A stretch of DNA of 64,000 nt, taken from contig NW_025964090.1 of the NCBI RefSeq assembly GCF_023055435.1, positions 2,542,001 through 2,606,000 on the forward strand, written 5' to 3'. The notes under the pieces were generated by a model, which saw only the letters and a program-made list of their open reading frames with translations, was not told the origin of the DNA and searched no databases. Below are positions 2,469 through 59,628 of this stretch, one piece after another (within the stretch, counting starts at the first letter, position 1; each line of letters opens with the position of its first letter). The DNA is from Haliotis rufescens (Eukaryota). Position numbers and translations under genes: made by a program.

Positions 2469-3297
2469 GGTGTTGCTGTGAGGATTCATCCAGATCAGAT
2501 GATGAGCCACGGGGGTACGACTGATCTATGTGCCAACTCCGAGCTGCAGAGTATCGGACACATGGGAAATAAGGAAACATCCAGATGCCCAAAGACATTT
2601 CAGAATTCCTGCAACAAAAGCTTGGTATTGACCCTAAAAGGTAAGACATAGTACAAGGTTCTGTAATGAATTTCTGATTCAGAAATATTTCAACAATGTG
2701 TCTATAAAAATACAGTTAGTGTTTTGAGGCAGAATATATTGCTGTACTTTAAACGTGTTGTAAATCAAGACAACACTGTCCACTGCTTCAGGCCAGGGGA
2801 TGTGACGATAAACTTGTTTATATTCCAATAGATATCTTGATAGTCTTGTAAGGTCGCTGTGAGATATACCATACGATACATTAAAACTCAATATTTCTCA
2901 TGTCGAAATATTCTATCATGAGAGGAAATGAATATGAAGCCTTGTTGGCGAGTGAATACATTGATGTTTCTGCATCCTCAATTGTCGATCACAGCCATGG
3001 TAATCTTAAGATATGTTACCATTTTTGTGGCAGTGAATTATTCATTGAACATCGATATTTATAAAGTTGTATTGACACAACATTAAACATTTACTGATGT
3101 GTCTACATCACGACTCACGATGACACCCCGTGACCTAGGTCAGTATTAGGGTGGTCAGTTGTCACACACAGAACCTCATTTGAGCAGAATTCCGATTTCT
3201 GGTTATCTTTATTTTCAGAAATTACATCAAATTCACCAACATGAAAGCATTTGAAGTCGGGTGTAAGGGGACCACGTTTGAAATCTTGTGGAAATAA
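2469..3297 (+). pseudogene. MIF: MIF-like copy 1 (subtype A), exons 2-3 only, frameshifted
   Basis: Exon 2 2469-2640 (ag/gt; GVAVRIHPDQMMSHGGTTDLCANSELQSIGHMGNKE...) is 172 nt versus 173 in paralogs (gaaacatcc vs gaaaacattc, a 1-nt deletion). Exon 3 3219-3297 reads NYIKFTNMKAFEVGCKGTTFEILWK*. No exon 1 is found upstream in the window. Confidence 0.8.
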
Positions 3298-4009
3298 AAG
3301 AACCAGACAAAATATTTACTTCAAAACCAACCAATCAACTCATGATGATCCATAGAATCAGTGGTGAAGACGCATCAGTGGCATCTATGCCATATGGCGG
3401 CAGTGTAACAGTGCAACCCATACTAATGAGAACCTTTAAGAACCCATCACTGCAATAAGTAGTATGACATCTGATGTTGAGATGTGTCGGGTCGAGCAAT
3501 TGTGGTATTTCCCTGGAAGGTATTAACGGTTATTCTGCTGAAGTAATTAGAAGAGTGCCATGAAGTGAACCATAAGTTTGATTTGAAAGACGAATATTTT
3601 AAAGAAAACATTATTTAATTGGCCTGAATACACAATAATTGTAGAGACTGTGATCAATCAATAAACATGTGCAACTGGAATTATGGGTTCAATTTTCTAT
3701 GTGAGTGAATGTTGTTTTACGCTGCTGTCAGTATTATTCCAACTGTACAGCAGCCGGTAAATATGTCAACCAGTGATTGACCCCATGGTGATTCCGGGGT
3801 TAGAACAGGTCCCAAACAACCTATGCTGTAGGAGGTGACTAAATGGACCAATAGTCTGACTCAGTGACTTTGGTGATGGCGTGTCAACGTACCCCGACCA
3901 TGAGGGTCGCTGCTCACAATATCAATCACAAGATTTTCTGGTCCAGACTTGATTCGCTGTCATATAACTGGGCTACTGCTGAGTGTGTAGTCAAACAACA
4001 AACACACAA

Positions 4010-4270
4010 CAGTGATTGACAGCACAAGCACCGATACACACTGTTGGTACAGGATTACACACAAGCTTTGATACACACTGTTGGAGTGCGATGAGACGCA
4101 AGCATTGATACACACTGTTGGTACAGGATGACACATAAGCATTGATACACACTGTTTGGGTGTGATGACACACAAGCATTGATACACACTGTTGGGGTGT
4201 GATGACACACAAGCATTGATACACACTGTTGGGGTACGATGACACACAAGCATTGATACACACTGTTGGG
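4010..4270. repeat. 37-bp minisatellite (also at 121-226, 5200-5455, 22200-22250)
   Basis: Unit gcattgatacacactgttggggtgtgatgacacacaa. Confidence 0.9.
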
Positions 4271-4307
4271 TATAGGGGGGATCACGTTTGCAGTCTTGTT
4301 GAAGTAA
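4265..4307 (+). pseudogene. Orphan 3' half of a MIF-like exon 3 (VGYRGITFAVLLK*) followed by 3'UTR/flank homology
   Basis: gttgggtataggggggatcacgtttgcagtcttgttgaagtaaatgaat matches the exon-3 end and 3'UTR of copy 2 (12175-12260). Confidence 0.7.
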
Positions 4308-5649: not shown

Positions 5650-5693
<44 letters not shown>

Positions 5694-8337: not shown

Positions 8338-11300
8338 ATGCCTGTTTTTCTTCTGTTCACGAATCTGCCAGCAAGTGCCATCCCAAAGGGTTTTTTGTTG
8401 GAAACCTCAGCAGTTATCGCCAAAGCCATTCGGGAACCGGAAAGTGTAAGTTCAAGTTAACAAGAAGAAGAATATTTTTTTCCAAACCACATTATGTGTT
8501 GTGACTAGTAGTGGTAGTATGGTAGTATTGTATAAACAAAACCAATAGAATATTACAATGTATCATCAAACTGATGGAGGGAAACATATTTTTAGAAATT
8601 CATTTTGACATTAAAAAAGACATTTTGGCCACAAAAATACCTAATATATTCACAACCGCCTCTAGAAGGTAGAGCGTCTGCCCGGGGAGCGGAAGATCCG
8701 GGGTTCGATCACCGGCTGCATAATACCAAAAGACGATAAAAGATTGTACTTGTTGTTACCCTGTCTGGCGCTCGGCATTATGGGACTAAAACAAGGACTT
8801 GTCAGTATACTGTGTCTGAGTGGGGTATTCATGTTAAACTGCGGCATGGTATCTCAGTGAGCTAGCACTATAAATCGGCATCAGTCCGGACTAGTACAAG
8901 CAGACACACACAAACGTGCATGCACGTCGCTATATAAGTGCAATAATCTTGGACGCGACGTTAAACCCCATTTCACCTCACCTCACCTCTCTCTGTGTGT
9001 ATATGTCTGTAGATGTGTCTGTCTCTGCCTGTGCAGTGATTGCTATAAACTGATGTGACCTTTATTGTATCATTTGACAGTATTAGTATTGATGATATCA
9101 TTTAAAATTGAAGCAGAAAATAGAACAAAAAAATATATGTATCATGAAAATAATAATGATGCTTTCAATCCAGTGATTGACATCATGAGCATCAAATCCA
9201 CACAATTCCACTTACCAAAAGCACCAACATGAAGCTTCTTTTGGATGATTGTGTGTGAATGCCGTTTAATGCCGTACAGTCCAGCTGTATCATGGGCACC
9301 TGGAAACAATTAAGTTTGGACCCGGCATTTAAAGATTGATATTATGATCATAATCTGTCAGGGTATGATAACACAATCAACTACGTGACCGAGCCTGAAT
9401 ACCCGATCCACGAAATCACCTCCTACGAACCAGCATAGGCTATTTGGGATCAAAATATATTGAGGACTGACTTGCACATTGTACCATCTATTGCGTTGAG
9501 GACTGACTGCGATTGTAGTTTTGGTAGTTTGACATTGGATGTTCACACTGTAATCCCAATATGTTATGCCTTAAGGAAGTAGTCCTGAAGACATATGAAG
9601 AAAGTAAAACTGTCCTTGAAGTATAAAGAGTAAAACCTGGATGTAACAAACTGTGTAAATAGTGCTGTCATAGAAACCGTATTATTGCTGTGAAGGAAAA
9701 ATTCCCAGCTGTGGTTGCCAATAATGTAGACAGGGTGATTTGGGAAAGGGGATGCCTAGCAATATTTAGGGCGAGCGTATTTGCATTGTGCAAGAATAGT
9801 GTTGGGTGTTACCGTCAGACTTGACTATGTGATATTTACATTTCGAGGTCAGTGGAAATGTAAATATGTTTTGAAAATTTTGAGACCATATTTTGTTTTG
9901 CTGAGAAGTGTGTTAACCCTTCAAAACTGGTTGTATTTTGTCTGATGTTTAATCCTAGAACTGAATAAGAAATTACGGCGACCTATTTTAAAACTGTTGA
10001 CCCATTTTAATGATGTTAATGGACAGATAGTGTAATTATCAAGTCACAACAAGTTGTGATGCAAGGTTTTGTGTATGATGTCACGATGACATCTCCGTTG
10101 CGAGGTGTAACACTATTAGTAGTGGCCTCTGATACCAAGGCTGTGTTCAATGACCTGGGCCCACTTGCTCAAAGCGATCTTAGCGCTAAGATCATCGTAA
10201 CTCCCATACTTTAGCATGGCTTACAATAGTCTTAGCGCTAAGATCGTTTTGTGCAAGTAGGCCCTGGTTGGATGTATGTTACTGTATTTCCTCGATTAAT
10301 CGCCGGTGTACGAGGTATCTGAAAACAATAAATGCCGGATCCCCATTAAATGCTGGGCCTCGAGATTTAGAGAACCTTTAAGCTGCGGTGTCAAAGATAG
10401 GTCTGAGAAAACCATTAGTCGGAAATTGAAATTATAAACGCTGGGCCTCGACGTCTTATGGAGGAAATATGGTATTACCATATTTACTCACGTTATCATT
10501 CAAACTGGGTACTGAAAATTCCCTATGGAACATATATTAAACATATTTTACTTCCTTTGGGCCAGTCGGTTGGGTATTAAGGAACCAGTGAGTACATATA
10601 GACCTCTTTCAACAATAATTATGCTTCGGAATCAGTTTCAGGTGACTTTTGAGTGGGATCTGTTTATGTGTACATGATCCGTTTATTCCTTCAGTAGAAA
10701 AATTCTGTAAAGACACACAGGAGTACCAACTGAAATGGCTACATTGGCCATTAGTCACTATTGGTGTTTTCATGCGTATTTGTACACATTTGAAGAAGTC
10801 AAAACTGACTAGGTAATGGTGATATTGTGCGTATTTTGTGTAGCTGTGGTGTACCCTGGGGGATTCCTGGACATCACAAACTTTTCTTTACTGTGAAAGA
10901 TGACCAGTAGCCATTAAAATCATTCATATGAAATTTAAGGTAAAAAAAAAACACTGTCCCACTCCATGTAAATTGTTCATTCTAAGTTTCAAATGAATGT
11001 ATTTTTGGCAGTTAAACTCAATCATTCACTCAACTCAATCATTCACCCAACTTAATCATTCATTTTATCAAAATGATTCCGAAAACTTACTCAATCATTC
11101 TCTCAGCTGAATCATTCACTTAGCCTATTCAATCATTCACTCAATCATTAAATCAACCTCCTCAACTACTCACTTGCGCGACTTACTAAATGATTCCCTC
11201 AATCATTCACTCTACATGTTTCATCGTTAACTCATCTTACTCAATCATTTACTCAGCTTACCCAATCATTTACTCAATCATTCAAATAGCTTTCACTCAA

Positions 11301-12216
11301 CTTAATAATTCATCCACCCAAATATTTTGCTATATTTCAGTATGTGACGGTGAGGAATCATCCAGATCAGATGATGAACCACGGGGGTACGACTGATCCA
11401 TGTGCCAACTCCGAGCTGCGGAGTACCGGACACATGGGGAATGAGGAAAACATTCAGATGTCCAAAGAAATTTCAGAATTCCTGCAACAAAAGCTTGGTA
11501 TTGACCCTAAAAGGTTAGAAATTATACTTGGTTCTGTTTTGAATTGCTGAAGTATTTCAACAATCTGTCCATAAAATACAGTTGGTGTTGAGGCAGAATA
11601 AATCGCTGTACTTTATGTTTGATGTAAATCAAGGCAACACGTGGCCACTGCTTATGAGGTACCATGAAATATTCTATCATTAGAGGAAGTGAATGTGAAG
11701 CCTTGTCGTAGAGTCCATTGAATTTTCGGCAACCTCATTGTCCATCTTAGCCATGGTAATCTATAGGTATTTAAACATTTTTGTTGCAGTAATGGGCGGT
11801 TGGGTAGCCTAATTGTTAAAGTGTTCGCTCGTCACGCCGAAAACCCGGGTTTGATTCCCCACATGGGTACAATGTGTGAAGCCAAATTTCTGGTGTCCCC
11901 CACCGTGATTCTGCTGGAATATTGCTAAAAGCGGCGTAAAACCATGTTCACTCACTGACTCACTGTGAGAGTGAATTATTTATTGCGTATTGATATTCAT
12001 AAAGTTGTACTGATACAACATAGACATTAACCGATATATCTACATCACGACACATGATTACATCCCGTGACCTCGGCCAGTATTTGAGTGATCAGTTGCC
12101 ACACACAGAAACACAGTTGAGCAGAATTCTTATTCAGAAACTACATCAAATTCACCAACCTGAAGCCACTTGACGTTGGGTATGAGGGGACCACGTTTGC
12201 GGTCTTGTGGAAATAA
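8338..12216 (+). CDS. MIF: MIF-like copy 2 (subtype B), 119 aa; join(8338..8445,11341..11513,12138..12216)
   Basis: Spliced product MPVFLLFTNLPASAIPKGFLLETSAVIAKAIREPES/YVTVRNHPDQMMNHGGTTDPCANSELRSTGHMGNEENIQMSKEISEFLQQKLGIDPKR/NYIKFTNLKPLDVGYEGTTFAVLWK*. N-terminal MP, colinear with vertebrate MIF, GT-AG introns at the MIF-conserved positions. Confidence 0.88.
8655..8990 (+). mobile_element. tRNA-headed SINE family B
   Basis: A/B-box-like head (ggtagagcg...gggttcgatc) and (cacct)n tail; homologous to 16877, 42607 and 53815. Confidence 0.8.
10158..10263. mobile_element. Palindromic mini-MITE, PIF/Harbinger-like
   Basis: TIR ggcccacttgctcaaagcgatcttagcgctaaga with its reverse complement at the other end; CTG duplication; paralogous introns show the empty site (gcctggatgg). 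Confidence 0.75.
11015..11320 (+). repeat. Same intron-1 minisatellite, copy 2
   Basis: Direct inspection. Confidence 0.85.
11794..11964 (+). mobile_element. SINE family A
   Basis: tRNA-like A/B boxes and (cact)n tail; absent from intron 2 of the paralogs. Confidence 0.85.
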
Positions 12217-14496: not shown

Positions 14497-17143
14497 ATGC
14501 CTGTTTTTCTTCTGTTCACGAATCTGCCAGCAAGTGCCATCCCAAAGGGGTTTCTGTTGGAAACCACAAAAATGATCTCCAAAACCCTTCGGAAACCGGA
14601 AGAGGTTCGTTCAAGCATACATGCAGAAGTAGAAATTCTGTTTCTAAACCACAGTATTTGTTGTGAATTGTCAATAGTTCTTTGTAGCAGTATTTTGAAT
14701 GAATTATCAGAATATTACAATGTATTATCAAACAGATAGAGGGGAGTCTCTTTTTAAAGAAATTGATCAAACGTCAAGATGGGTCATATCAGGACATGTT
14801 TGACATTAAAGCCATTACAATTATTGATTATATGTGTATCTCAACATGACGGTTATTATTGTCAAGTAAGGGCTTCCTTGGGCAAATGAACCCTCTTTCA
14901 ACAACATTTTCATTCACGATCATTAAGATTTGGAAATAATGTCATTANNNNNNNNNNNNNNNNNNNNNNNNNNNNNNNNNNNNNNNNNNNNNNNNNNNNN
15001 NNNNNNNNNNNNNNNNNNNNNNNNNNNNNNNNNNNNNNNNNNNNNNNNNNNNNNNNNNNNNNNNNNNNNNNNNNNNNNNNNNNNNNNNNNNNNNNNNNNN
15101 NNNNNNNNNNNNNNNNNNNNNNNNNNNNNNNNNNNNNNNNAAAGTATAATTCATTATTGTAAGAGGAAATGTATTGGAATGTATTTCAGTTCTTGCAGTA
15201 ATGATGTGATGATGTATTTTGTAACATTTAACAGTATTAGTATCGGTAATATATTAATTATATAGAAAACAGAGAAAAAACAATAAATATGATGAAAATA
15301 ATAATTAAACTTTCAATCCAGTGATTGACATCAATTCACACAATTGGGTTACGGCAACACACAGTCACCCAAGTCACCAAACTTGACCACACGATCCACT
15401 TACTTGCCTCCGACGTCGAGTTCGTCACGGTATGGCTGAAATATTGCCGATGTGACGTAAACATTAACTCACTCACTCTGACGTCGAGCATTGGTTTCGA
15501 CGGATCCATCTTCTGTCCTGAATCCAAATAATCTGATGATAATTTAATACATTTGGTCTTTGATCTTATAATCATAGATGGAGACTCTGATATTTATAAA
15601 TGGGAGCCAGATAACGGGGAACACATAACGCCAGTGTTCGAAATACCTGCCTGCCCGACCGTCCGAGACGGGTTGATTTCAACTCGGGCTGCAAGATTTT
15701 CAAATCCCCCTGCCCGACGGTCGGGTTATATTTCATATGTGAAAATATTCTAAATATTTACCGATGATAAGCATTAATTCACATGTAAAGATGAATGATA
15801 AAATGTAACCAAAAAGAAACCCCGTTAGCTTATCCTGAGAAACATATGATTATAGTGGGAAGGCAGGTTTTGGTCAGGGCTGGCAAGTATTTCAGCTAGC
15901 CAGTCCTGTGGTCTGGCTGAAATTTTTGGGAGTTTCATACCCTGATAACGCACATATGGCATCTATTGCATAATTTTGTGTGTGAGTATTGCTTAATGCC
16001 GTGAATTCCAGCTGTATGATGGAGACCTGGGAGCCTGGCGCAGTGATCAGTGATTGATATTAGGAGCACAACCCGTCAGGGTACGTTGACACACAATTAA
16101 CTTAGTGACCAAGCCTGACAACTTGGTCCTTTTAATCACCAACTACGACCAGCAGAGATTGTTTGAAACAAATTTCAATCTGAATCCCGGCAGGGTTCGA
16201 GGGGGAATGACTACATTTCATTGTTTGCCTTTATGCTGTTCTTCGGACAAGTGATCTGAAAATGAGTTGTTTAGCCCAACAATAGGGGTGAGTTTCAACA
16301 TCGCATATCTTTCGTCCGTCCATACTTGGCAGCCATATTGAGAGACTCTAATTGTTCAGTAAGTTCAGGTTAGAATTAATAATGTTTTATTAGAAATTAC
16401 AAATAACCATAGGGAGCTATATCTATAGGAGAAAACATGCCTCCGAGCCTTTGGTTGAAAATGTAAACACGAGGGAAAGGGAAAGTCTGAAGAGTTTGTT
16501 TGATATAAACAAAAATATAATACATTTTGGGCGTAAAAACGAGACTATTGTACAGCTGTTCATGTGTACAACTGTTAGCGAAAAGGGGCGCGGCACGAGA
16601 ATTTCGTGCTCGTGTCGCGGTTTTATACCACGTGGCTGGTACGAGCGATCGCAGCGTGCGAGAGAAAGACCACGTGCAGCATGCAGCACAAACAGAGGTC
16701 TTGACAAGTAAAACTGAACTACTTGTAATCACCTCCACCGGTGGCTCAGTGGGGAAACTAAACACGAAATGTGAGGTTGCAGGTTCGATAACCTTAATCC
16801 ATAATGAAAACTTTCATTCCAAGTCTTCGAAAACAAATTTCATCTACTACTCAACTCATCAGGTCTTACTATGGGAGACCGCCTCCGTGGTCTAAAGGTA
16901 GAGCGTCCGCCCGGAGAGCGGAAGGTCCGGGGTTTGATCCCCAGCTGCGTCATACCAAAAGACGTTAAAAGATGGTACTTGTTGTTACCCTGTCTGGCGC
17001 TCGGCATTAAGGGGCTAAAACAAGGACTGGTCGGCTCGGAGTCAGTATACTGTGTCTGAGTAGGGTATTCATGTTAAACTGCGGCATGGTATCTCAGTGT
17101 GCTTGCACTATAAATCGGCATCAGTCCGGACTAGTACAAGCAG

Positions 17144-20100: not shown

Positions 20101-21137
20101 TTACTCCACCATTTACTCCACCACTGAATCTTTATTCACACAATGTACTCATTCAATCAGGCAACCTACTTCGTCATTCACGTCACTAACTCAAACAGTC
20201 ACCCAAATTATTCCGTCATTCACTCAACTTACTCAATCATTTATTCAACTTTCTCAATTATTCAGCAAAATCATTCATTATATCATTGTCTCAACTTACT
20301 CAATCGTTCAATCATTTTACTCAGTCTTTCACTTAACTTATTAACTTATTTACTCAAGTATATTTCAGCGTATTGCAGTGTTGATTCATCCAGATCAGAT
20401 GATGAGCCACGGGGGTACGACTGATCTCTGTGCCAACTCCGAGCTGCAAGGTATCACGAACATGGGGAATAAGGAAAACATTCAGATGTCCAAAGACATT
20501 TCAGAATTCCTGCAACAAAAGCTTGGTATTGACCCTAAAAGGTAACAAATTATACATGGTTCTGTTTTGAATTTCTGAAGTATTTCAACAGTCTGTCCAT
20601 CAAAAACAAATCGCTGCACTTTATGCTTGTGGTAGATCAAGACAACACGTGGCCACTGTGACAATAAACCTCTTTATATCCAATTAATATTTGATAGTCT
20701 TGTAAGGTCGCAGTAAGAAAAAACATACATAAAAACTCAATATTATTCATGTCGAAATATTCTATCATGAGAGGAAATGAATATGAAGCCTTGTTGGCAA
20801 GCGAGTCCTTTGAGTTCTCAGTTCTCAGCCATGGTAATCTATAGATATGTGATCATTTATGTCGCAGTCAACTGCTCATTTAGTATTGATATTCATAAAG
20901 TTTTATTGATACGACATCAACATTTAACATGTACTGATGTGACTACATCCCGACTCACAATGACACCCCGTGACCTAGGTCAGTAGTAGGGTGGGCAGTT
21001 GTCACACACAGAGCCACAGTGGAGCAGAATTCCGATTTCTATTATTCTTTATTTTCAGAAACTACATCAAATTCACCAGGAATCAAGCATTTGAAGTTGG
21101 GTATAAGGGGACAACGTTTGAAGTACTGTGGAAATGA
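14497..21137 (+). CDS. MIF: MIF-like copy 3 (subtype A), 119 aa; join(14497..14604,20369..20541,21059..21137)
   Basis: MPVFLLFTNLPASAIPKGFLLETTKMISKTLRKPEE/RIAVLIHPDQMMSHGGTTDLCANSELQGITNMGNKENIQMSKDISEFLQQKLGIDPKR/NYIKFTRNQAFEVGYKGTTFEVLWK*. Intron 1 spans an N-gap and has a weak donor (gttcgt). Confidence 0.85.
15632..15944. mobile_element. Non-autonomous DNA transposon with CAG...CTG ends
   Basis: Termini cagtgttcgaaat / tttcataccctg; 7-bp duplication ataacgc on both sides. Confidence 0.6.
16877..17245 (+). mobile_element. tRNA-headed SINE family B, full length
   Basis: Head plus internal (CA)n plus cacct tail; flanked by tatggga duplication. Confidence 0.85.
18553..18945. mobile_element. 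Tc1/mariner-like MITE containing (gtgatgcac)n
   Basis: ta|ctattcaaagtttgc ... gcaaactttgagtgg|ta; absent from paralogous introns. Confidence 0.55.
19305..20355 (+). repeat. Same intron-1 minisatellite, copy 3
   Basis: Direct inspection; explains the spurious L/H-rich ORF 19411-20127. Confidence 0.9.
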
Positions 21138-25330: not shown

Positions 25331-28300
25331 ATGCCTATTTTTCTTCTGTTCACGAATCTGCCAGCAAGTGCCATCCCAAAGGGGTTTCTGTTGGAAACCA
25401 CAAAAATGATCTCTAAAACTGTTCGGAAACCGGAAGAGGTAAGTTTAAGCAAATATGCATAGATATAGGGGAGCTTCGTTTTAAAGAAATGGATCCAGGC
25501 TGAATGGTAAAAACGTAATTTTGCATGCAACGGGAGTTTTCGCTCCCGTACTGCACGAATCCCTCTCTGAATGTCACATTGACACAGTACAGTGACTGAC
25601 AATCACAGCCAGTCTGGCCGGGGTGCATGCTTCTGCAAGAAAGAAACTGATACACCACTGAGCAGATTCAAGGTCAGAATATGTAGGTCATTCATTGGGA
25701 GCTGAAAATGAGGTCAGGTTACAGTGCAGCTTCACAATGTCATATGAGATAGATAAAACAGTTCTAACTCATTGCGCCATTGCAATGTTGACTTGGGTGA
25801 AATGCATTTTTGTGATAGAAATTTCCTCTTATAAAAAAGAAGCGATCAGAAATAGTGTGATCAAAATTTACAAAGTATCCCAATNNNNNNNNNNNNNNNN
25901 NNNNNNNNNNNNNNNNNNNNNNNNNNNNNNNNNNNNNNNNNNNNNNNNNNNNNNNNNNNNNNNNNNNNNNNNNNNNNNNNNNNNNNNNNNNNNNNNNNNN
26001 NNNNNNNNNNNNNNNNNNNNNNNNNNNNNNNNNNNNNNNNNNNNNNNNNNNNNNNNNNNNNNNNNNNNNNNNNNNNNNNNNNNNNNNNNNNTATTACGGG
26101 TAATGTATTATGATGACTGCTTGCTAAAAACTGATGTAACCTATTTTGTAAAATTTTAAAGTTCGAATAGGGATTTGTTTTATTTCATTGTTTGCCTTTA
26201 TGTTGTTAGTATTGGGACACGTGCTCTGAAAATGAATTGTTTAACCCCACAAAGCCCAAAGTGGGTGGGTTTCATCATGTCTGTGTTTCTGTGTGCGTGT
26301 ATCTGTGTGTGTGTCTATCTGTCTGCGTGTGTGTCTCTCTGTGTCTGTCTATGTGCGAGTGTATCTATCTGTGAGTGTGCGTGCGTGTGTGACTGTCTGT
26401 CTGTGTGCGTGTGTGTGACTGTCTGTCTGTGTGCGAATGTGCGTGCGTGTGTGTGACTGTCTGTCTGTGTGCGAATGTGTGTGCGTGTCTGTGACTGTCT
26501 GTATATCTGTCTGCGTGTGGGTAGGTGGGGCAGAGTGTTCTAGTCCGGACTTATGCCGGTGATAAAGTTCAAGCTCACTGAGTTACCATACCACAGTTTG
26601 ACTTGAATAACGCACATCATACTGACTTTGAGCTGACCAGTCCCCTAACTGCAGATTGTCAGGCAGAGAAACAACAAGTACAATCGTTTAACCTCATTAA
26701 GTATTGCACGGTATGGAATCAAACCACGGTCCACCCGCTCTCCAGGAAGGCGCTCTTACCACGCAGCTTGTGGTGGTATTGAGTAAACCATTTATTTTAT
26801 ATAGAGAAATGTCCGTTTGCAACTAAATGAGCGGGTTTGGTACGACTCTGCTTTTAACAGCATTACAGTTCTATCACAGCGTGTTAATCCAATGTAGCCA
26901 GAAAGCCCGAAGTGATGTAGATTATACATGTGTACCGCTTTGGTTACGGCATGATCACAGGATCACATGATCCCCATTGTGATTCCAGGTCCAACCTGTG
27001 CTGATCATAAAAGGCGACCAAACGGATCGGGTGGTCAGGCTTGCGTTATTCCCAATATCAGTCACTGGATTGTCTGATCCAGACTTGACGAGACTTTTTT
27101 TACAGGCTTCCATCATATAACTGGTGCCCTGCTGACTGCAGCATCAACAAAGTGCTTTTGACAAACCAAGAAACGTTATCAGGGTGAGCAGGGATACTGT
27201 TTGTTTGTTTGTTGTTTAACTCCACACATAGCAATATTCCAGCTATATGATGGCGGTCTGGAAATAATCCAGTTTGGACCAGACAATCCAGTGATTTATA
27301 TAATGAGCATCGATCCAAGCAATTGGAATACGATGACATGCATCAGCCAAGTCAGCATGTCTGACCACCCGATCCCGTTAGTCGCCTCTTACGGCAAGCA
27401 TAGTCGCCTTTTTACGGCAAGCATGGGTTGCTGAAGACCCGGATCTACCCCTGATTCTACCCGGATCTTCACGGGTCAGCAGGGACACTGACCCACATTC
27501 ACAAGTATCTAGCACCAACCTTTGCACAGCGAATTGCAGCACCTTATAATAAGACGGCTAGGCCACTCATGTTCCCCTCTCAGCTCAATAGGAAATAAAT
27601 TATCTTTGAATGAAAGTGTGACTTATTTTATTGCATGAATTTAAAAAGAAATATTTGAATGGATAGTTCCATAATAATTCCATGATAATAAAAAAATTAG
27701 CTTTTTTCGGCTTAATGACATAACGTATTTCATATATAATTCAGATATGATAATTCTAAATGTTAAACGATTCGGAACATAAACTAGAACTAACTAGGAA
27801 CTGGTTTTCCCTCGTTTAGTCTTCCTAACAAGGTTTGAGACCCGTGAAGATTCCGGGGTAGAATAGGTCTTCAGCAACCCATGCTTGCCGTAAAAGGTGA
27901 CTATGCTTGTCGTAAAAGGCGACTAACGGGATCGGGTGGTCAGGCTCGATGACTTGGTTGATGCATGTCATCGATCCAAATTGCGTGGATCGCTGCTCAT
28001 GATATCAATCACAAGGTTAAACAACAAACAACCAACCAACCTAACAAGGTTTGAGCATACAGATGGAGCCTGAAAAGCAAAAGCATACATGGAAAACTAC
28101 AACACATAGCAGGCGTTATGTCACGTAGGCTGAAGAATAGTTTTAACACTAGGTACGACTTGTACCAGATAGCTGGGGTCTATCATGATCTCAAGTATGT
28201 TGGAAGTAAGTATACGTAGTGACCTCTCATAACAAGAATTTGTTCAATAGCCAAGATGGACGCAGGTTACCGTATTTTCTCCATTAAACGCAGGCAGGCA

Positions 28301-31300
28301 GGCATTTTAGAAAACTTTTAAGCTACGAGGATGGGTCTGAGGATATCATTATCGGAAATTGAAATTATAAACGCAGGGCCTTGATAAAACGCCAGGGGTA
28401 AAGAGTGTCTGAAACAAAATAAACGTCCTGGCGTTTAATGGAGGAAATACAATGCGACCATGAACCTTCCAATATGTGCCAGTGCTCCAGATACGTGTTT
28501 GGGGCCATTGGGTATTCACGTACATTATCATTCATATTGGGTATTGATAGCTTTCTTTGGGTTTTTAACATATTTTAACTTCTTTGGATCCAGCCTATGA
28601 GGTATTTGGGGTGGTCAGGTAGCCTAGTTGTTGAAGCGTTCACTCGTCACGCCAAGGACCCGGGTTCGATTCCCGACATTGGTACAATGCGTGAAGCCCA
28701 TTTGTGGTGTCCCCCGCAATGATATTGCTGGAATATTGCTAAAAGCGCCGTCACTCACTCACTATGAAGTTTTTATGAACCAATGAGTACAGGTAGACTT
28801 TTTTAAACAATAAGTCTGCGTTAGATGCTGTTTCAGGTGACTTCTATATTTGCATATGTATGCGCGATGCCTTTATTCGATATTCAGAAAGGATCTGCAC
28901 AGAAATACGGAATACTTAAAATGCTGCACTGGCTAATTTATACACAATATTAGTCCACAATTGGGTTTTTCATGTATATCTGAACGCATGTGAAGAACTT
29001 CAAGGTAATAGGAAAATGGTTATTTTGAATATTGTATATGCACATATCAAGCATCTTATCTTGTGTACCTGGATTCCAAGTATTCATTAAAAAAACCCAT
29101 TAATGTCATATATGAGGTGAGGAAGTCAGGTGTCGACTGTAAATTCTAACCTTCAAATGATGTAGTTTGGTTGCTGCACTCAATCATTCACTCAACTTGG
29201 TCACTCAATTACTCTAGTTAATCAGACGCTCAACTTAGCAAATCATTCACTCAATTTACTCCATCATTCACTCAACTTACATCATCTTTCACTCAACTTA
29301 CTCCATCATTCACTCAACTTACATCATCTTTCACTCAACTTACTCCATCATTCACTCAACTTACATCATCTTTCACTCAACTTACTCCATCATTCACTCA
29401 ACTTACATCATCTTTCACTCAACTTACTCCATCATTCACTCAACTTACATCATCTTTCACTCAACTTACTCCATCATTCACTCAACTTACATCATCTTTC
29501 ACTCAACTTACTCCATCATTCACTCAACTTACATCATCTTTCACTCAACTTACTCCATCATTCACTCAACTTACATCATCTTTCACTCAATTTACTCCAT
29601 CATTCACTCAACTTACATCATCTTTCACTCAACTTACTCCATCATTCACTCAACTTACATCATCTTTCACTCAACTTACTCCATCATTCACTCAACTTAC
29701 ATCATCTTTCACTCAACTTACTCCATCATTCACTCAACTTACATCATCTTTCACTCAACTTACTCCATCATTCACTCAACTTACATCATCTTTCACTCAA
29801 CTTACTCCATCATTCACTCAACTTACATCATCTTTCACTCAACTTACTCCATCATTCACTCAACTTACATCATCTTTCACTCAACTTACTCCATCATTCA
29901 CTCAACTTACATCATCTTTCACTCAACTTACTCCATCATTCACTCAACTTACATCATCTTTCACTCAACTTACTCCATCATTCACTCAACTTACATCATC
30001 TTTCACTCAACTTACTCCATCATTCACTCAACTTACATCATCTTTCACTCAACTTACTCCATCATTCACTCAACTTACATCATCTTTCACTCAACTTACT
30101 CCATCATTCACTCAACTTACATCATTGTTCACTTAACTTACTCCGTCATGCACTCAACTTACATCATTGTTCACTTAACTTACTCCGTCATGCACTCAAC
30201 TTACACAATCATTTACAAAACTCACCCTGTCATTCGCTCAACTTACCCTGTAATTCACGCAACTGACTCCATTATTCACTCAACATACTCCGTCATTCAC
30301 TCAACTTACTCCATTATTCAATCAACTTATTCAATCATTTGCTAAACTCACTCTGTGATTCACTCAACTTACGCAAGGTGTTGTGGGGTAGTATGGTGGT
30401 TAAAAGCGACAGCTCTTGCTGAAGGTCCGGGTTCGATTCCCCAGTTGGGTACAACGCGTGAAGCCTGTGATATTGCTGGAAAGGCGGTGTAAAACCATAC
30501 TCAATTACTCACTAACTCAACTGACTCCATTATTCACTCAACTTAGTCCGTCATTTAGTCAACTTACTCAATCATTCACTCAACAAACTGTGTCACGTAC
30601 TCAACTTACTCAATCATTTACTCAACACACTGCGTCACATACTCAAGTGACACAATCATTCACTCAACACACTGCTTTATGCACTCAGCCTTGTATTCAA
30701 CTTTCTCAATTATTCACTCAATCATACATTATATAATTTTACTCAACTTACTCAATCATTCAAACAACTTACTCCGTCTTTCACTCAACTTAATAACTCA
30801 TTTACTCAAGTATATTTCAGGGTGTTGCAGTGAGGATTCATCCAGATCAGATGATGAGCCACGGGGGTACGACTGATCCATGTGCCAACTCCGAGCTGCA
30901 GAGTATCGGACACATGGGGAATGAGGAAAACATTCAGATGTCCAAAGACATTTCAGAATTCCTGCAACAAAAGCTTGGTATTGATCCTAAAAGGTAACAA
31001 AAACGACAAGGTTCTGTTTTGAATTTCTGAAGTATTTCAACAATATGTATATGTTACAGGAAATATGTATAATCAGGAAATTTGTTTGTTTTTTATCAAG
31101 TTTGACCATATGAGAGCCTCAAAAGTAATTTCAGGGAATATGTCTTAAAAACTTGAAGTTAAATCAGAGAATGTGTATAATACCTGAAAATGTTAGGGAT
31201 TATGTATATTCCCTGAGTGAATCAGACATTAAATATATTCCCTGAAAATTTCGGGGATTATACATATTCCCTGATTATACATATTCCCTATATAAATATA

Positions 31301-41976: not shown

Positions 41977-44206
41977 ATGCCGTGTTTTCTTCTGTTCACG
42001 AATCTGCAAGCAAGTGCCATCCCAAAGGGTTTTTTGATGGAAACCTCAACAGTCATTGCCAAAGCCATTCGGAAACCGGAAATTGTAAGTTCAAGCTAGC
42101 ATGCACAAGAATAATTTTTATCCAAACCACAACATGTGTTGTGACCAGTAAATGTTCTTTATAGTAGTATTGCGAAAAACATATCAGAATATAACAATGT
42201 GTTATCAAATTGTTGGCGGGAAACCTATTTTTAGAAATTTACTAGATGTCAAGATTTATCATATCAGGACATGTTGGAAAAACCCTTTGTAAACTCCTCT
42301 CTAAAATGTATATATTCACAAGGAAATAATATATGAGCATATTAATATGGGTGTAAGAAACAATCTCCACTATGCTTTTGGCAGAAATTTCTTGTGCGGT
42401 TTGGTTGGTTGTTTGGTTGGTTTGTTATTTTACGCCGCACTCAGCAATATTCCAGCTATCTGACGGCGGTCTGTAAATAATCGAGTCTGGGCCAGACAAT
42501 CCAGTGATTGATATCATGAGCATTGATCCACGAAATTGTTGTGCGGTAAGAAAGTGGTTCTAAAGTTACAGACATAAGAAGGAAGTGAAACTGTGCGATA
42601 AGTATTAGGTGAGAAGAGGTTAAATGGGGTTTAACGTCTCGTCCAAGATTATTGCACTTATATAGCGACGGGCATGCACGTGTGGGTGTGGGTGGCTGCT
42701 TGTACTAGTCCGATTTATAGTGATGCCGATTTATAGTGCTAGCTCACTGAGATACAATGCTGCAGTTTCACATGAATACCCCACTCAGACACAGTATACT
42801 GACTCCGAGCCGACCAGTCCTTGTTTTAGCCCCTTAATGCCGAGCGCCAGACAAGATAACAACAAGTACCATCTTTTAACGTCTTAAGGAGTAAAACCTA
42901 CTGTCATTGTTCATAAAATCGGTGTAAGAATCTGTGTAAATAGCTCTTTCACAGCTCATATTGTATACATTGTGATGTTGAAAAGGGGATACCTCGCAGT
43001 GTTTAGGACGAACATAGTCATTATTTGCATTGTCCGTGAATAGTGTTCGGCGTCACCGACGTGATGTTTACATTTCGAGGCCTTTGGAAATGCGAGAGGG
43101 TAACATTATTAGTGACCTCTGATAACAAGGCTATGGCCTGAATAGATGCAGGGTACCGTATTTCATCGATTAAACGCCTGAGTACGAGGTATCTGCAAAA
43201 AATAAATGCATTAGAGTTTTAGAGAACTTTTAAATTACGGAACTGATTTCAGTATGTGACGGTGAGGATTCATCCAGATCAGATGATGAGCCACGGGGGC
43301 ACGACTGATCCATGTGCCAACTCCGAGCTGCAGAGTATTGGAAACATGGGGAATGAGGAAAACATTCAGATGTCCAAAGAAATTTCAGAATTCCTGCAAC
43401 AAAAGCTTGGTATTGACCCAAAAAGGTTAGAAATAGCAAATGGGTCTGCATTGAAATGCTGAAGTATCGGTCATGTTGGTGGATTTCTGAGGGAGAATAA
43501 ATTGCGTACTTTATGCTTGTGGTAAATTAAGACAACACGTGGCCACTGCCTAAGGCTTGAGCATGTAACGATACACTTATTGGCTATACAATAGATATCT
43601 TGATAGTCTTGTAAGGTTGCAACAGGATACACAATATGATACATGAAAACTCAATAGTTGACATGTTGAATATTTATCATAAGAGTACATGAATATGAAG
43701 CCTTGTTGGCGAGTGAGTCCACTGACTTTTCGCATCCTCATTGCCCATCTAACCCAGGGTAATCTGTAGACATTTATGTGACAGTGAACTATTGACTTTG
43801 TATCGATATTCATAAACTTGTATTGATTCAACATAGACATTTACTACTATATTTACATCACGACACATGCTTTCCGTAAAAGGTGACTATGCCTGTGGTA
43901 AGAGACGACTAACGGGATCGGGTGGTCAGGCTCCAAACTCGATTATTTACAGACCGCCGTCATATAGCTGGAATATTGCCGTGTGCGGCGTTAAACCACA
44001 AACAAACATCACGACACTCGATGACACGATGACACCCAGTGACCTAGGTCAGTATTAGGCTGGTCAGTTGTCACACACAGAACCACAGCTGAGCATAATT
44101 CTGATATATGGTTTTCTTTATTTTCAGAAACTACATCAAATTCACCAACATGAAACCACTTGAGGTTGGGTTTGATGGGACCACGTTTGAAGTCTTGTGG
44201 AAATAA
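41977..44206 (+). CDS. MIF: MIF-like copy 5 (subtype B), 119 aa; join(41977..42084,43253..43425,44128..44206)
   Basis: MPCFLLFTNLQASAIPKGFLMETSTVIAKAIRKPEI/YVTVRIHPDQMMSHGGTTDPCANSELQSIGNMGNEENIQMSKEISEFLQQKLGIDPKR/NYIKFTNMKPLEVGFDGTTFEVLWK*. Intact, no gaps. Confidence 0.92.
42607..42885 (-). mobile_element. SINE family B, 5'-truncated
   Basis: Reverse complement of about 16960-17245. Confidence 0.75.
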
Positions 44207-44644: not shown

Positions 44645-46310
44645 ACCGGGGGGTGCAATGACCCACAAGCAGCGATACACACTTTTGGGATGCGATGTCA
44701 CACAAGCAGCGATACACACTTTTGGGATGCGATGTCACACAAGCACCGATACACACTTTTGGGATGCGGTGACACACAAGAAGCGATACACACTTTTGGG
44801 ATGCGATGTCACACAAGCAGCGATACACACTTTTGGGATGCGATGTCACACAAGCACCGATACACACTTTTGGGATGTGGTGACACACAAGCAGCGATAC
44901 ACACTTTTGGGATGCGATGTCACACGAGCAGCGATACACACTTTTGGGATGCGATGTCACACAAGCACCGATACACACTTTTGGGATGCGGTGACACACA
45001 AGCAGCGATACACACTTTTGGGATGCAATGTCACACAAGCAGCGATACACACTTTTGGGATGCGATGTCACACAAGCAGCGGTACACACTTTTGGGATGC
45101 GATGTCACACAAGCACCGATACACACTTTTGGGATGCGGTGACACACACGCACCGATACACACTTTTGGGATGCGATGTCACACAAGCAGCGATACACAC
45201 TTTTGAGATGCGATGTCACACAAGCACCAATACACACTTTTGGGATGCGGTGACACACAAGCACCGATACACACTTTTGGGGTACGATGTCACACAAGCA
45301 CCGTTACACACTTTTGGGATGCGGTGACACACAAGCACCGATACACACTTTTGGGGTGCGATGACACACACGCACCGATACACATTGTTGGTGTGCGATG
45401 ACACACACGCACCGATACACACTTTTGGGATGCGATGACACACACGCACTGATACACACTTTTCGGGTGCGATGACACACACGCACCGATACACATTGTT
45501 GGGGTGCGATGACACACACGCACCGATACACATTGTTGGGGCGCTATGACACACACGCACCGATATACATTGTTGGGGTGCGATAACACACAAGCACCGA
45601 TACACATTGCTGGGGTGCGATGACACACACGCACCGATACACATTGTTTGGGTGCGATGACACATAAGCACTGATACACATTGTTGTGGTGCGATGATAA
45701 ACACGCACTGATACACATTGTTGGGGCGCGATGACACACAAGCACCCAAGCACCGATACACATTGTTGGGGTGCGATGACACACACGCACTGATACACAT
45801 TGTTGGGGTGCGATGACACAAACGCACCGATACACATTGTTGGGGTGCGATGACACACACGCACTGATATACATTGTTGGGGTGCTATGACACACACGCA
45901 CCGATACACATTGATGGGGCGCTATGACACACACGCACCGATACATATTGTTGGGGCGCTGTGACACAAGCACTGATACACATTGTTGGGGCGCTATGAC
46001 ACACAAGCACTGATACACATTGTTGGGGTGCGATGACACACACGCACCGATACACATTGTTGGGACGCTATTACACACACGCACTGATACACATTGTTGG
46101 GGCGCTATGACACACACGCACCGATACACATTGTTGGGGCGCTGTGACACACGCACCGATACACATTGTTGGGGTGCTATGACACAAGCACAGATACACA
46201 CTTTTGGGGCGCTATGACACAAGCACTGATACATACTTTTGGGGCGCTATGACAAAAAAACTGAAACACACTTTTTGGGTGCTATGACACAAGCACTGAT
46301 GCACACTATT
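44645..46310. repeat. 37-bp minisatellite, ~44 units
   Basis: gcaccgatacacattgttggggtgcgatgacacacac-type units. Confidence 0.95.
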
Positions 46311-47651: not shown

Positions 47652-47652
<1 letters not shown>

Positions 47653-47729
<77 letters not shown>

Positions 47730-47737
47730 GTGTGTGT
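47653..47737. repeat. (GT)n microsatellite
   Basis: Direct inspection. Confidence 0.95.
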
Positions 47738-47779
47738 TATTAATTATTAAATTAAGCATTTATATAGTTTTACACACAC

Positions 47780-56253: not shown

Positions 56254-59200
56254 CTACAAGGCTGCAAATGTGGTCCCGCCATACCCGACCTCAAGTCGTT
56301 CCATTTTGGTAAATTTGATGTAGTTTCTGTAAATAACCAAAACCAGAAATCAGAATTCTACTCATCTGTGGATCTGTGTGGCAACTGACCACCCTAATAC
56401 TGACCTTGGTCACTTGTGAAGATGACCAGGAAACCAGTACCAAATCCATTCTTATGTGACCTTTGACCAACTTACTATTGACCCTTTGGGTGGTAAGTGT
56501 TTTACATAACAAATTTTTTTCAGCCTGGACACGCTTTTTACATCTTCCCGGGGCAAGAGAGTTAACTGACTATAAAAGTCCAGTTTCCACCCTTGCCAAA
56601 CTAGGCTAGTATTATGGAGTTACGTTTTGGCTGGACTAACGAGTCTATGCATAGTCCAATCAAAATCGCGCACCGAAATTGAAATCCGGTTCGTAAACTG
56701 TCGTCGGTCAATTGCAGGATTTGCAAAGCGTGTGCACCGCCAACTCGTTGTTAGCAGATATTTGCAAAAAGAAATTATGTTTTTAATCAAGGTGCTCACG
56801 TGATTTCATGCATTTCGCGATGTAAGATCCGTTTTATCACAATACAGATCTTGATTATCGATCAGATCGTCTTGACTAGGCGCCGCAATTTGCTTTGTAG
56901 CAAATGCAAGTGATACGAGAGGTGAAATCTGATTGGCTCAAAGAAGAGGCTTAGAAGGGACATAACTCGTAATATCCACTGGTGGCACTTTGATCTAGCG
57001 CAGTAATTCCACCCTAGTTTGGCAATGGTGGAAACTGGACTTTTAAAGTCAGTTAACTTCCTTGCCTCGGGAAGATGGCCTTTTTATAGATATAAACCTT
57101 ACCTACAACCAGTACAAACCTATAAAATCACCAACAGGATAACAGATCAAACATCTTCGATTATACAGGGTACTTTATCCTCTTTCTATTAGGATAAACA
57201 CCCTGTACTCATTTGTCAACAAGGTTTCATATTTATATCCTGTCACAATAAATCATGATAAATTTTTCAGCATGTCAAGTATTGCAAGGTATCGTATTGC
57301 AACCTTACAAGACTATCAAGATGTCTATTATTTAGCCAATAAGTGTATCGTTACATACTCAAGCCTTAAGCAGTGGCCATGTGTTGTCTTGATTTACCAC
57401 AAGCATAAAGTACGCAATCTATTCTCCCCCAGAACTCCACCAACATGACCAATACTTCAGCAATTCAATGCTATTTCTAACCTTTTAGGGTCAATGCCAA
57501 GCTTTTGTTGCAGGAATTCTGAAATTTCTTTGGACATCTGAATGTTTTCCTCTTTCCCCATGTGTCCGATACTCTGCAGCTCGGAGTTGGCACATGCATC
57601 AGTCGTACCCCCGTGGCTCATCATCTGATCTGGATGAATCCTCACCATCACATACTGAAATATAGCAAACTACTTAGTCGGGGTGCATGAATTGAGTAAA
57701 TGATTTATTGAGTTGTGTGAACAATTGAGTCAGCTGAGCAAATGGTTGTGGAGGTTGGGTGAATGATTGAGTAAGCTGAGTGAATGAGTATTGAGTGATG
57801 GATTGAGGTGATTAAAACATTGAGTAGATTGAGCAAATAATTGAATAGATTTGGTGAATGATTGAGTAAGCTGAGTGAATGGTTGTGTTAATGATTGAGT
57901 AAGTTAAGTGAATGATTGAGTAGGTTGAGCAAATAATTGAATAGATTTGGTGAATGATTGAGTAAGCTGAGTGAATGGTTGTGGAGATTGGATCAATGAT
58001 TGAGTAAGCAGAGTGAATGAGTATTGAGTGATGGATTGAGGTGATTAAAACATTGAGTAGATTGAGCAAATAATTGAATAGATTTGGTGAATGATTGAGT
58101 AAGTTAAGTGTATGATTGAGTAGGTTGAGTGAATAATTGAGTAGATTTGGTGAATGATTGAATAAGCTGAGTGAATGATTGAGTAGGCTGAGCGAATAAT
58201 TAAGTCAAGTGATTGAGTGAGCTGGGTTAATCACTGCTTTTAACAGTATTCCAGTTGCATCACTGCGTGTCAGCTTAATGTGGGACTAAAGCCTGAAGTG
58301 ATGCAGGTTTTAGACATTAATACCTTGGGACAAACCTAGAAACATAGTCGGGACGAGCCAGGATTCAAACCCACAATCATAGGTTCCTGGTTCTGCCCAA
58401 TGGACGCAACTCTGCACAGCGTATTGTGGTGCCATAGTCGACTTTCCGCCTATGCCCCGATTAAGTCAAGTGTATGATTAAGTGTAGCAATCAAATCACC
58501 TCATTTGAAGGTTTGAATTTACTGTTGACACCTGGCTCCCTTACCTTATTATGAGGTGAAGGAATTTTTAATGACTAGTGGTAATCTTTCACAACTGATA
58601 GAATTTTTTGCCGGGTCCTGGAACGCGTATTTGCATAACATTTGCAAACAATATAACCATTTCCCAAATGTGTACAAATATGCATGAAAAACCGAATAGG
58701 GGACTAACATTGTGCATTTTAGCCAATGTAGTCTTTTTATTTTCAGTTTGTATTCCTGTATTTCTTTACGGTTCTTTTCTGCTGATTGAATAAACTTATC
58801 ATGTATACACAAACAGATGCAAATTCACCTGAAACTGCATCCGAAGCAGAATTATTATTTAAAAAGGCCTACCTTAACTTGTTGGTTCATAAATACCCAA
58901 CTAAAGTAGCAGTAACAATATGCTGAACACCCAAAGAGAACTGTCAATACCCGATGTGAATGAAAATGGGAGGAAATACCCAGTGGTTCCAAACATTATC
59001 TGGATCACTGGTACACTATTGGAAGCTTTATGGTCGTACCATATTTTCTCCATTAAACGCCTGAACATATATTTCTTTCAGACTCTCTTTACCCCCATCG
59101 TTTAATCGAGAAACAATGATCGACTAACCATTTGCTCAAACACATCTTCGTAGTTCTCTAAATTGCTTCTGTTTAGCGGGGATTAGTGTTGAACGCATGT

Positions 59201-59628
59201 AGTAGTCAAAATACAATACGGAGAGAATTCTGTCCATAAAAGCTCCTTTTGTTTAATAGAGGCCCGGGGTTTGTTGATTTCATGTACCCTCTTCCCAGGC
59301 GTTTAATCAAGGAAATACGGTAGCCTGCATCCATCCAGGCTATTTAACAAATTGTTATCAGAGGTCACTACTAATTAAGTTTTCCTCCTTAGATTTGATA
59401 ATACATCGTAATATTCTGAAAAACTATTCAACATACTAATATAAAGAGCATTGACTAATCACAACATATATTTTGGTTTGGAAAATAATGTTCTTCTTGT
59501 GCGTGATAGCTTGAACTTACAGTTTCCGGTTTCCGTATAGCTTTGGCGATGACGTTTGAGGTTTCCAACAGAAAACCCTTTGGGATGGCACTTGCTGGCA
59601 GATTCGTGAACAGAAGAAAACACGGCAT
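56254..59628 (-). CDS. MIF: MIF-like copy 6 (subtype B, inverted), 117 aa; complement(join(56254..56326,57482..57654,59521..59628))
   Basis: MPCFLLFTNLPASAIPKGFLLETSNVIAKAIRKPET/YVMVRIHPDQMMSHGGTTDACANSELQSIGHMGKEENIQMSKEISEFLQQKLGIDPKR/NYIKFTKMERLEVGYGGTTFAAL*. Canonical splice sites. Confidence 0.9.
56541..57077. mobile_element. MITE with ~65-bp TIRs in intron 2 of copy 6
   Basis: catcttcccggggcaag...ttgccaaactagg / cctagtttggcaa...cttgcctcgggaagatg; near-identical 9-bp flanks ending cttttta. Confidence 0.82.
57690..58210 (-). repeat. Same intron-1 minisatellite, copy 6
   Basis: gagtgaatgattgagtaag units on +. Confidence 0.88.
58213..58459 (-). mobile_element. SINE family D
   Basis: TSD attaagtcaagtg. 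Confidence 0.8.

What the first reader, a model, noticed from the sequence alone, without database searches (positions are those of the whole stretch)
2469..59628. Six-copy MIF-like cytokine array diversifying around the active site
Seen: six spliced paralogs with a nearly invariant scaffold (HPDQMM, SEFLQQKLGIDPKR, YIKF). Variation (human MIF numbering, colinear without gaps) sits at position 2 (V/V/I/C/C), 32 (E/K), 35 (S/E/E/I/T), 36 (G/Y/R/G/Y/Y), 63-66 (SIGH/STGH/GITN/SIGN), 100-104 and 108-109 (CK/YE/YK/CE/FD/YG). In copy 3 versus copy 4 exon 2, I count 8 amino-acid-changing codons against 2 silent ones. Established: P1, M2, K32, Y36, I64, Y95, N97, W108 and F113 form the MIF tautomerase pocket and its receptor-contacting rim, and most animals have only a few MIF/D-DT genes, although expansions are known in some invertebrates. 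Inference: a birth-and-death repertoire under diversifying selection for ligand, receptor or pathogen specificity.
Basis: partly seen in the sequence, partly recalled or inferred. Interest (0 to 1): 0.8.

Follow-up and report, generated by a model that had tools for sequence, protein, structure and literature searches.

The report
Abalone MIF cytokine gene array
An abalone carries a tandem row of copies of the immune protein MIF that keep their catalytic core while the surface ring around the pocket changes unusually fast, a modest sign that the copies are being tuned to different partners.

Summary
The array is real, but it holds five intact three-exon MIF genes plus one broken copy (frameshift, no exon 1), not six. 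Four copies equal proteins named Haliotis rufescens MIF-like. Copy 4 differs at 1 of 119 residues from an H. cracherodii protein, so these are not haplotype artefacts. The listed residues and the 8:2 count are correct. Site models favour positive selection on one tree (LRT 7.5, p about 0.02). That weakens to p about 0.07-0.12 once exchange between copies is modelled. What survives is local. The catalytic core has omega about 0.3. Five pocket-rim residues (36, 64, 66, 108, 109) have omega about 2.9, p about 0.005, 0 of 151 null simulations; I chose that set after seeing the data. Best reading: a birth-and-death, mosaic MIF array with a conserved enzyme core and a selected partner-binding rim. 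Partner and expression are untested.

The parts
2469..2640 (+). Copy 1 exon 2, 172 nt; one A missing in the run at 2575-2577 (frameshift) and S76P; no exon 1 in the window; probable pseudogene
3219..3297 (+). Copy 1 exon 3 (coding part to stop)
4265..4307 (+). 43-nt remnant of the 3' half of exon 3 (86% identity to copy 2)
8338..8445 (+). Copy 2 exon 1 (K32E); its 5' flank resembles copy 4, its coding part resembles copies 5/6
   Evidence: whole protein equals P0005
11341..11513 (+). Copy 2 exon 2 (I41N, S48N, Q62R, I64T)
12138..12216 (+). Copy 2 exon 3
14497..14604 (+). Copy 3 exon 1 (donor GTTCGT, off consensus)
   Evidence: protein equals the last 119 residues of P0007
20369..20541 (+). Copy 3 exon 2 (R36, L40, L55, G63, T65, N66)
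21059..21137 (+). Copy 3 exon 3
25331..25438 (+). Copy 4 exon 1; 5' flank like copy 2, coding part like copy 3
30821..30993 (+). Copy 4 exon 2 (G36)
   Evidence: whole protein differs at 1 of 119 residues from H. cracherodii P0003
31546..31624 (+). Copy 4 exon 3 (C108, E109)
41977..42084 (+). Copy 5 exon 1
   Evidence: whole protein equals P0001
43253..43425 (+). Copy 5 exon 2
44128..44206 (+). Copy 5 exon 3 (F108, D109)
59521..59628 (-). Copy 6 exon 1 (inverted copy)
   Evidence: whole protein equals P0004
57482..57654 (-). Copy 6 exon 2
56254..56326 (-). Copy 6 exon 3; stops two codons early, an ending shared with H. rubra P0006
19320..20255 (.). 21-bp-unit satellite in intron 1 of copy 3; related arrays lie in intron 1 of copy 1 (1754-2147), copy 4 (29229-30372, 42-bp unit) and copy 6 (57881-58205); part of the duplicated unit
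44650..46307 (.). 37-bp satellite in the 3' flank of copy 5 (45 units); related arrays at 118-229, 4017-4270 and 5198-5457 mark unit ends

Best explanation
This is a tandem array of the abalone MIF gene itself. It grew by duplication of whole three-exon units, loses copies by decay, and swaps segments between copies. SHOWN: five intact genes; a catalytic core under purifying selection; mosaic ancestry; excess amino-acid change at the solvent-facing ring around the pocket mouth (36, 66, 108, 109; also 2 and 35). INFERRED: each copy makes a Pro1-dependent MIF trimer. Four probably keep tautomerase activity and copy 2 (K32E, I64T) has probably lost most of it. Selection after duplication has retuned the rim so that copies differ in which protein partner they engage or evade: an unknown snail MIF receptor or a pathogen factor. 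I favour a protein partner over a new small-molecule substrate because the residues that touch the substrate are fixed, while those that govern receptor activation in human MIF change.
For: MIF identity: Pfam MIF at 78-117 bits, gap-free match to solved MIFs, MIF fold for the model, 76% identity to the H. diversicolor protein A9QXF1. Core P1/K32/I64/Y95/K97: omega about 0.3, and 0 of 5 vary without copy 2. Rim 36/64/66/108/109 (set from PMC12059935): 5 of 5 vary; 11 parsimony changes against 2.6 expected, p 0.0007; p 0.0005 when matched for family-wide variability; p 0.001 without copy 2. Fixed-site omega 2.6-2.9, p 0.005-0.008 with one or three trees and with doublet rates 0 to 0.05. 0 of 151 simulations with a fully neutral rim reached that value. 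The same rim varies among 6 proteins from H. rubra, H. asinina and H. diversicolor (9 extra states against 3.4, p 0.018) while 4 of 5 core sites are fixed. Single-tree M1a/M2a LRT was 6.3-8.5 in all 6 subsets and frequency models tried. Mosaicism: copy 4 5' flank vs exon 1, p 0.0003; breakpoint inside exon 2 of H. rubra P0006, p 0.002. Snail MIF with Lys97 is an active tautomerase and an immune cytokine (PMC2944803, passages).
Against: I chose the rim set after seeing the variable sites, and it is one of 8 sets tested; Bonferroni p is about 0.04-0.06. The unpartitioned site test falls to LRT 4.2 (p 0.12) on per-exon trees. It falls to 3.6 (p 0.16) at the best-fitting doublet rate tried, and 8 of 120 null simulations reach the observed value. 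Positions 66, 108 and 109 are also highly variable among 8 distant MIFs. The other-species check is not independent, because some copies share ancestry with these. There are only 6 sequences. No expression, activity or partner data were available. Most mammalian MIF receptors are missing in invertebrates (PMC6826473, passage), so the 'CD74 rim' label is borrowed from human MIF.
Confidence: 0.5

Rival explanations
1. Relaxed constraint plus gene conversion. Extra copies are kept for dosage or expression pattern, or by drift. The core is conserved, exposed rim and loop sites drift freely, and recombination and multi-base mutation create the appearance of omega above 1.
For: All 15 whole-gene pairwise dN/dS values are 0.16-0.88. 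M1a, with about 45% neutral sites, is not rejected on per-exon trees or with doublets. 8 of 120 null simulations reach the observed LRT. Recombination is shown. Copy 1 is broken, and copy 2 has 3 private nonsynonymous and 0 synonymous changes at otherwise invariant codons.
Against: The rim exceeds a fully neutral expectation in 151 of 151 simulations with mosaic trees and doublets. Adjacent mismatches in non-coding flanks are only slightly above chance (161 against 141), so a high doublet rate is not supported outside exons. Array variability correlates poorly with family-wide variability (Spearman 0.12, p 0.19).
Confidence: 0.27
2. Enzyme diversification. The copies are tautomerases or electrophile scavengers selected for different small molecules (dopachrome-type pigment intermediates, catechol quinones, dietary algal phenolics), and the pocket mouth sets substrate access.
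For: M2, Y36 and W108 contact ligands in human MIF complexes (PMC11670708, PMC8266241, passages), and all three positions vary here, including gains and losses of Cys at 2 and 108. Pro1 is kept in all five copies that have exon 1.
Against: The direct substrate contacts (P1, K32, I64, Y95, 97) and V106, F113 and H49 are fixed outside copy 2. The 7 pocket-lining residues are not enriched for change (p 0.07-0.16). No physiological substrate is known for mammalian MIF (PMC6826473 section 3.6). The diet and pigment link is my inference and comes from no call.
Confidence: 0.15
3. Haplotype or assembly artefact, or uniform neutral decay of dead copies.
For: The window has four N-runs. The copy-1 frameshift sits in a homopolymer, a common sequencing error (my knowledge). 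No expression evidence was available.
Against: Copies differ by dS 0.11-0.29, and the longer alignable flanks (60 or more columns) differ by about 4-30%. Copy 4 differs from another species' protein at 1 of 119 residues. About 55% of codons have omega near 0. Five reading frames with GT-AG introns are intact.
Confidence: 0.04

Closest known systems
Abalone MIF of Haliotis diversicolor supertexta (UniRef A9QXF1; Wang et al. 2009, seen only as a reference-list entry)
   Same: 76% identical to copy 5; same Lys97, Cys2, His49 and no CXXC. Lys97 in abalone MIFs is already noted in PMC2944803.
   Different: It appears in the papers seen as a single cloned gene. Its C-terminal extension type is absent from the six window copies. 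No paper found describes an array, paralogs or selection.
Aphid MIF multigene family (PMC4169804, passages)
   Same: Five MIF paralogs from serial duplication in an invertebrate, expressed in hemocytes.
   Different: Aphid copies are only 33-55% similar and only 3 of 5 keep the catalytic Pro. The abalone copies are far closer (78-87% identical to copy 5), tandem, exchange segments and keep Pro1. The term 'positive selection' does not occur in that paper's text.
Cross-kingdom MIF survey (PMC6826473; introduction, section 3.6 and passages read)
   Same: Clade-specific re-duplications, conserved tautomerase residues, CXXC mostly absent outside some nematodes.
   Different: It reports 0-5 MIFs per species and only six positively selected positions across its groups; Haliotis is not mentioned. 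Here Y36, counted there among globally conserved residues, is G or R in 3 of 6 copies.
MIF-like gene expansion and loss in bivalves (Rosani et al. 2019, PMID 31306763; title only, from a reference list; text not held)
   Same: By its title, mollusc MIF-like expansions are already known.
   Different: It concerns bivalves. Whether it covers abalone, tandem arrays or site selection could not be checked.
Human MIF (PDB 1MIF, 1CA7 and others)
   Same: Gap-free alignment over 114 residues (E about 1e-23), P1/K32/I64/Y95/F113 and fold. The three-exon layout appears to match (recalled, from no call).
   Different: N97 is Lys, W108 is Tyr/Phe/Cys, H62 is Gln/Arg, and there is no CXXC. Humans have no comparable tandem MIF array (recalled).

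Membership tests
MIF family (tautomerase superfamily) | Pfam PF01187 domain over about 114 residues | tested here: met
   6 of 6 proteins scanned score 78-117 bits against a cut-off of 22
MIF family (tautomerase superfamily) | N-terminal Pro after Met | tested here: met
   5 of 5 copies with exon 1; copy 1 has no exon 1 in the window
MIF family (tautomerase superfamily) | K32, I64, Y95 catalytic-site residues | tested here: met
   met in copies 3-6; not met in copy 2 (E32, T64)
MIF family (tautomerase superfamily) | Double beta-alpha-beta MIF fold | tested here: met
   moderate model (pLDDT 67); all listed Foldseek hits are MIFs, TM 0.61-0.65
MIF family (tautomerase superfamily) | Homotrimer | not tested
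   the complex job was not queued; assumed from homology
MIF family (tautomerase superfamily) | Tautomerase activity and cytokine activity | not testable with these tools
   shown for Biomphalaria MIF (PMC2944803), not for these proteins
MIF proper rather than D-DT/MIF-2 | Closer to vertebrate MIF than to D-DT | tested here: met
   81-89 bits to vertebrate MIF chains (Xenopus 77) against 50-52 bits to D-DT
Vertebrate-type MIF | Asn97 and the CXXC oxidoreductase motif | tested here: not met
   Lys97 in 6 of 6; the second Cys is Ser in 6 of 6
Birth-and-death multigene family | Paralogs of mixed age, pseudogenes, lineages shared across species | tested here: met
   broken copy 1; copy 4 shared with H. 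cracherodii; copy 6 exon 3 groups with H. rubra P0006 (support 0.94)
Gene family under diversifying selection | omega above 1 at a class of sites, robust to recombination | tested here: inconclusive
   borderline gene-wide; significant for a rim set chosen after seeing the data
Gene family under diversifying selection | Copies expressed and functionally distinct | not testable with these tools
   no RNA or assay data available

The most novel reading that the evidence does not exclude
The array is a small combinatorial cytokine repertoire. The residues one subunit lends to its neighbour's pocket (H49, Y95, K97) are invariant, and residues 71-99 vary at only 2 of 29 sites. Paralog chains could therefore co-assemble into mixed trimers showing different rims. 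Catalytically crippled copy 2 could act as a decoy, in an arms race with a pathogen MIF-binding factor or with a diversifying snail MIF receptor.
Probability: 0.12. Interest if true: 0.75.

Novelty: new variant of a known kind. Interest (0 to 1): 0.45.

Why it matters
The invertebrate MIF receptor and the natural substrate of the MIF tautomerase are both unknown. Five natural variants, 78-87% identical, with a fixed catalytic core and different rims, form a ready-made panel for asking whether the pocket's chemistry or the ring around it carries MIF's function in an animal that lacks the known mammalian receptors. Copy 2 is a natural K32E control. In practice, abalone studies that measure 'MIF' by qPCR or read mapping may be pooling several paralogs. 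The genes are already annotated, and MIF expansions are known in aphids and, by title, in bivalves. The new element is the rim-restricted selection signal and the mosaic history, and that signal is moderate.

Tried and rejected
Pairwise dN/dS as evidence of positive selection: rejected, 15 of 15 whole-gene pairs are below 1; only 2 of 40 per-exon pairs exceed 1. The single-tree M7/M8 result (LRT 8.7, p 0.013) was not accepted at face value because recombination is present. Exon 1 of copy 1 hidden in the N-run at 587-789: rejected, intron-1 homology continues across it. Helix-1 sites 23-30 and loop 100-105 as selected regions: omega 1.1-1.75, not significant. Exon-wide homogenisation within the window: dS is similar to flank divergence, so not supported. 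A compensated indel at copy 3 codons 100-102: masking them leaves LRT 7.1. Cluster membership of the named proteins could not be looked up, so whether copies 3 and 6 have H. cracherodii counterparts and how copy 1 is annotated stay unchecked. Trimer prediction: not queued and not resent, since a homotrimer would pass by likeness to solved MIFs. IQ-TREE timed out on one protein segment, so two segments were done with FastTree. Of 150 unnamed library hits, only 7 that score above human MIF were used; the other 143 were left out because some may be human. No DNA of other abalone species was available, so cross-species tests are on proteins only. Literature: 9 searches (one search was for pocket residues) found no paper on an abalone MIF array. 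PMC13229213 (passages and both supplementary files) and the main text of PMC9936805 do not mention MIF. Most subscription papers, including Rosani 2019 and Wang 2009, are not in the library.
Full report
What is there. Six-frame motif and exon searches found six exon-2 and six exon-3 copies but only five exon 1s. Copies 2-5 lie on + and copy 6 on -. Each has 108/173/79-nt coding exons (73 nt for exon 3 of copy 6) and GT-AG introns. Copy 1 has a 172-nt exon 2 with one A missing at 2575-2577, plus S76P. Upstream of it, unit 3'-flank sequence (56-229) is followed by intron-1 homology from about 548, so it looks 5'-truncated. The duplicated unit includes intron satellites and a 37-bp 3' satellite.

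Identity. Copies 2, 5 and 6 equal P0005, P0001 and P0004, and copy 3 equals the last 119 residues of P0007. All four are named Haliotis rufescens MIF-like. Copy 4 differs at 1 of 119 residues from P0003, named H. cracherodii. H. rubra (4 proteins), H. asinina (2) and H. diversicolor (1, 76% identical to copy 5) have relatives. Pfam, PDB sequence search and a fold search agree on MIF rather than D-DT, with gap-free numbering against human MIF. Lys97 and loss of CXXC are shared by all copies. Lys97 is known in abalone MIFs and is compatible with activity in Biomphalaria MIF (PMC2944803, passages).

Not an artefact. Paralogs differ by dS 0.11-0.29 and by a similar amount in alignable flanks. That is far more than copy 4 differs from the other species' protein.

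All listed residue states and the 8:2 codon count are right. But nonsynonymous sites outnumber synonymous ones about 4:1, and that comparison gives dN/dS 0.61; all 15 whole-gene pairs give 0.16-0.88.

Exchange between copies. Copy 4 has a copy-2-like 5' flank and a copy-3-like exon 1 (breakpoint p 0.0003). Copy 2 switches from copy-4-like to copy-5/6-like (p 0.003 and 0.04). In H. rubra P0006, residues 36-71 differ at 1 position from the H. diversicolor protein, whereas 72-93 differ at 1 and 94-116 at 3 positions from copy 6. The breakpoint lies inside exon 2 (p 0.002; P0009 p 0.005-0.013), which argues against exon mis-joining by annotation if the exon layout is the same. Some paralog lineages therefore predate the split of these species while segments have moved between them.

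Site models (my own GY94 code, F3x4 codon frequencies, not PAML). On one tree, M1a/M2a LRT is 7.48 (p 0.024), M7/M8 8.68 (p 0.013) and M8a/M8 7.46 (p 0.006), with 13-15% of sites at omega about 3.3. M2a sites above 0.5 posterior are 2, 24, 35, 36, 55, 65, 100, 103, 108, 109 and 115; none exceeds 0.96 in either model. Dropping copies or changing frequencies leaves LRT 6.3-8.5 in 6 of 6 runs. With the best tree per exon the LRT is 4.23 (p 0.12 on 2 df). Allowing double-base changes improves the null by about 4 log units and lowers the LRT to 5.0 (rate 0.02), 3.6 (0.05) or less. Non-coding flanks show only a slight excess of adjacent mismatches (161 against 141), from which I set the rate at 0.015. 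Under a null with mosaic trees and that rate, 8 of 120 simulations reached the observed 7.31. Gene-wide positive selection is suggestive, not established.

Where the change sits. Site sets came from papers: core P1/K32/I64/Y95/N97 (PMC8266241, passages), pocket lining (PMC11670708 and PMC8266241), and the five residues reported to influence CD74 activation, 36/64/66/108/109 (PMC12059935, passages). I had already seen the variable sites when I picked them. The core has omega about 0.3 and varies only in copy 2 (K32E, I64T). The rim has 5 of 5 sites variable and 11 changes against 2.6 expected (p 0.0007), and this holds without copy 2 and after matching for variability among 8 distant MIFs. Its fixed-site omega is 2.6-2.9 (p 0.005-0.008) in all four settings; the 15-residue union is 1.4-1.6, not significant. 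None of 151 simulations with a fully neutral rim, mosaic trees and doublets reached it. With 8 sets tested, the corrected p is about 0.04-0.06. The rim also varies among 6 proteins from three other species (p 0.018, not fully independent). The title 'diversifying around the active site' is therefore fair if 'around' means the mouth and not the catalytic floor.

Mechanism. Shown: duplication of whole units, decay, segment exchange, a conserved core and a fast rim. Inferred: the copies are MIF cytokines whose rims were retuned for different protein partners (0.5). Rivals are relaxed drift with conversion (0.27), small-molecule specificity (0.15) and artefact (0.04). The partner cannot be named: the known mammalian MIF receptors are mostly missing in invertebrates (PMC6826473). 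No expression or activity data could be reached.

Comparison and novelty. Invertebrate MIF expansions are known: five in the pea aphid (PMC4169804, passages), 0-5 per species in a broad survey (PMC6826473), and, by title only, in bivalves. The genes here are already annotated. My searches found no description of an abalone MIF array or of rim-focused selection, but key subscription papers were not readable. Verdict: a new variant of a known kind, interest 0.45.

Noticed in passing
window 50409-50594, 51185-51294, 52363-52509 (+): Three exons of a dynein heavy chain C-terminus lie between copies 5 and 6, tail to tail with copy 6. Pfam Dynein_C matched the first and third (2 of 3 pieces). No upstream dynein exon was evident by eye in 46300-50400, so this may be a stranded 3' fragment.
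   Followed up: partly
window 63342-64000 (-) and 60591-61163 (-): A protein-primed type-B DNA polymerase ORF running off the window and an intronless BIR/IAP ORF flank the array on the right. Together they suggest a Polinton/Maverick-like insertion (inference).
   Followed up: partly
window 8338-12216 (copy 2): K32E and I64T at catalytic positions, plus I41N, S48N and Q62R, in an otherwise intact gene: a dead-enzyme variant or early decay.
   Followed up: partly
window 35165-40305, 22247-22975: A 75-bp satellite of 69 units and a 91-bp array of 8 units inside the cluster.
   Followed up: no
protein P0011 (H. asinina): A database model fuses MIF exons 1-2 to a 'failed axon connections' protein; probably an annotation chimera.
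   Followed up: no
window 14239-14604 (copy 3 5' end): The database model P0007 starts 72 codons upstream, which would bury the catalytic Pro1. The other copies point to the ATG at 14497. The intron-1 donor is off consensus.
   Followed up: partly
codon 55 of exon 2 in copies 1, 3 and 6: P55 is invariant in 8 of 8 distant MIFs and 6 of 6 other-species abalone proteins, but is L, L and A here; unexplained.
   Followed up: no
window 587-789, 6674-6933, 14948-15140, 25885-26091: Four N-runs of about 200-260 bases, none overlapping an identified exon.
   Followed up: partly
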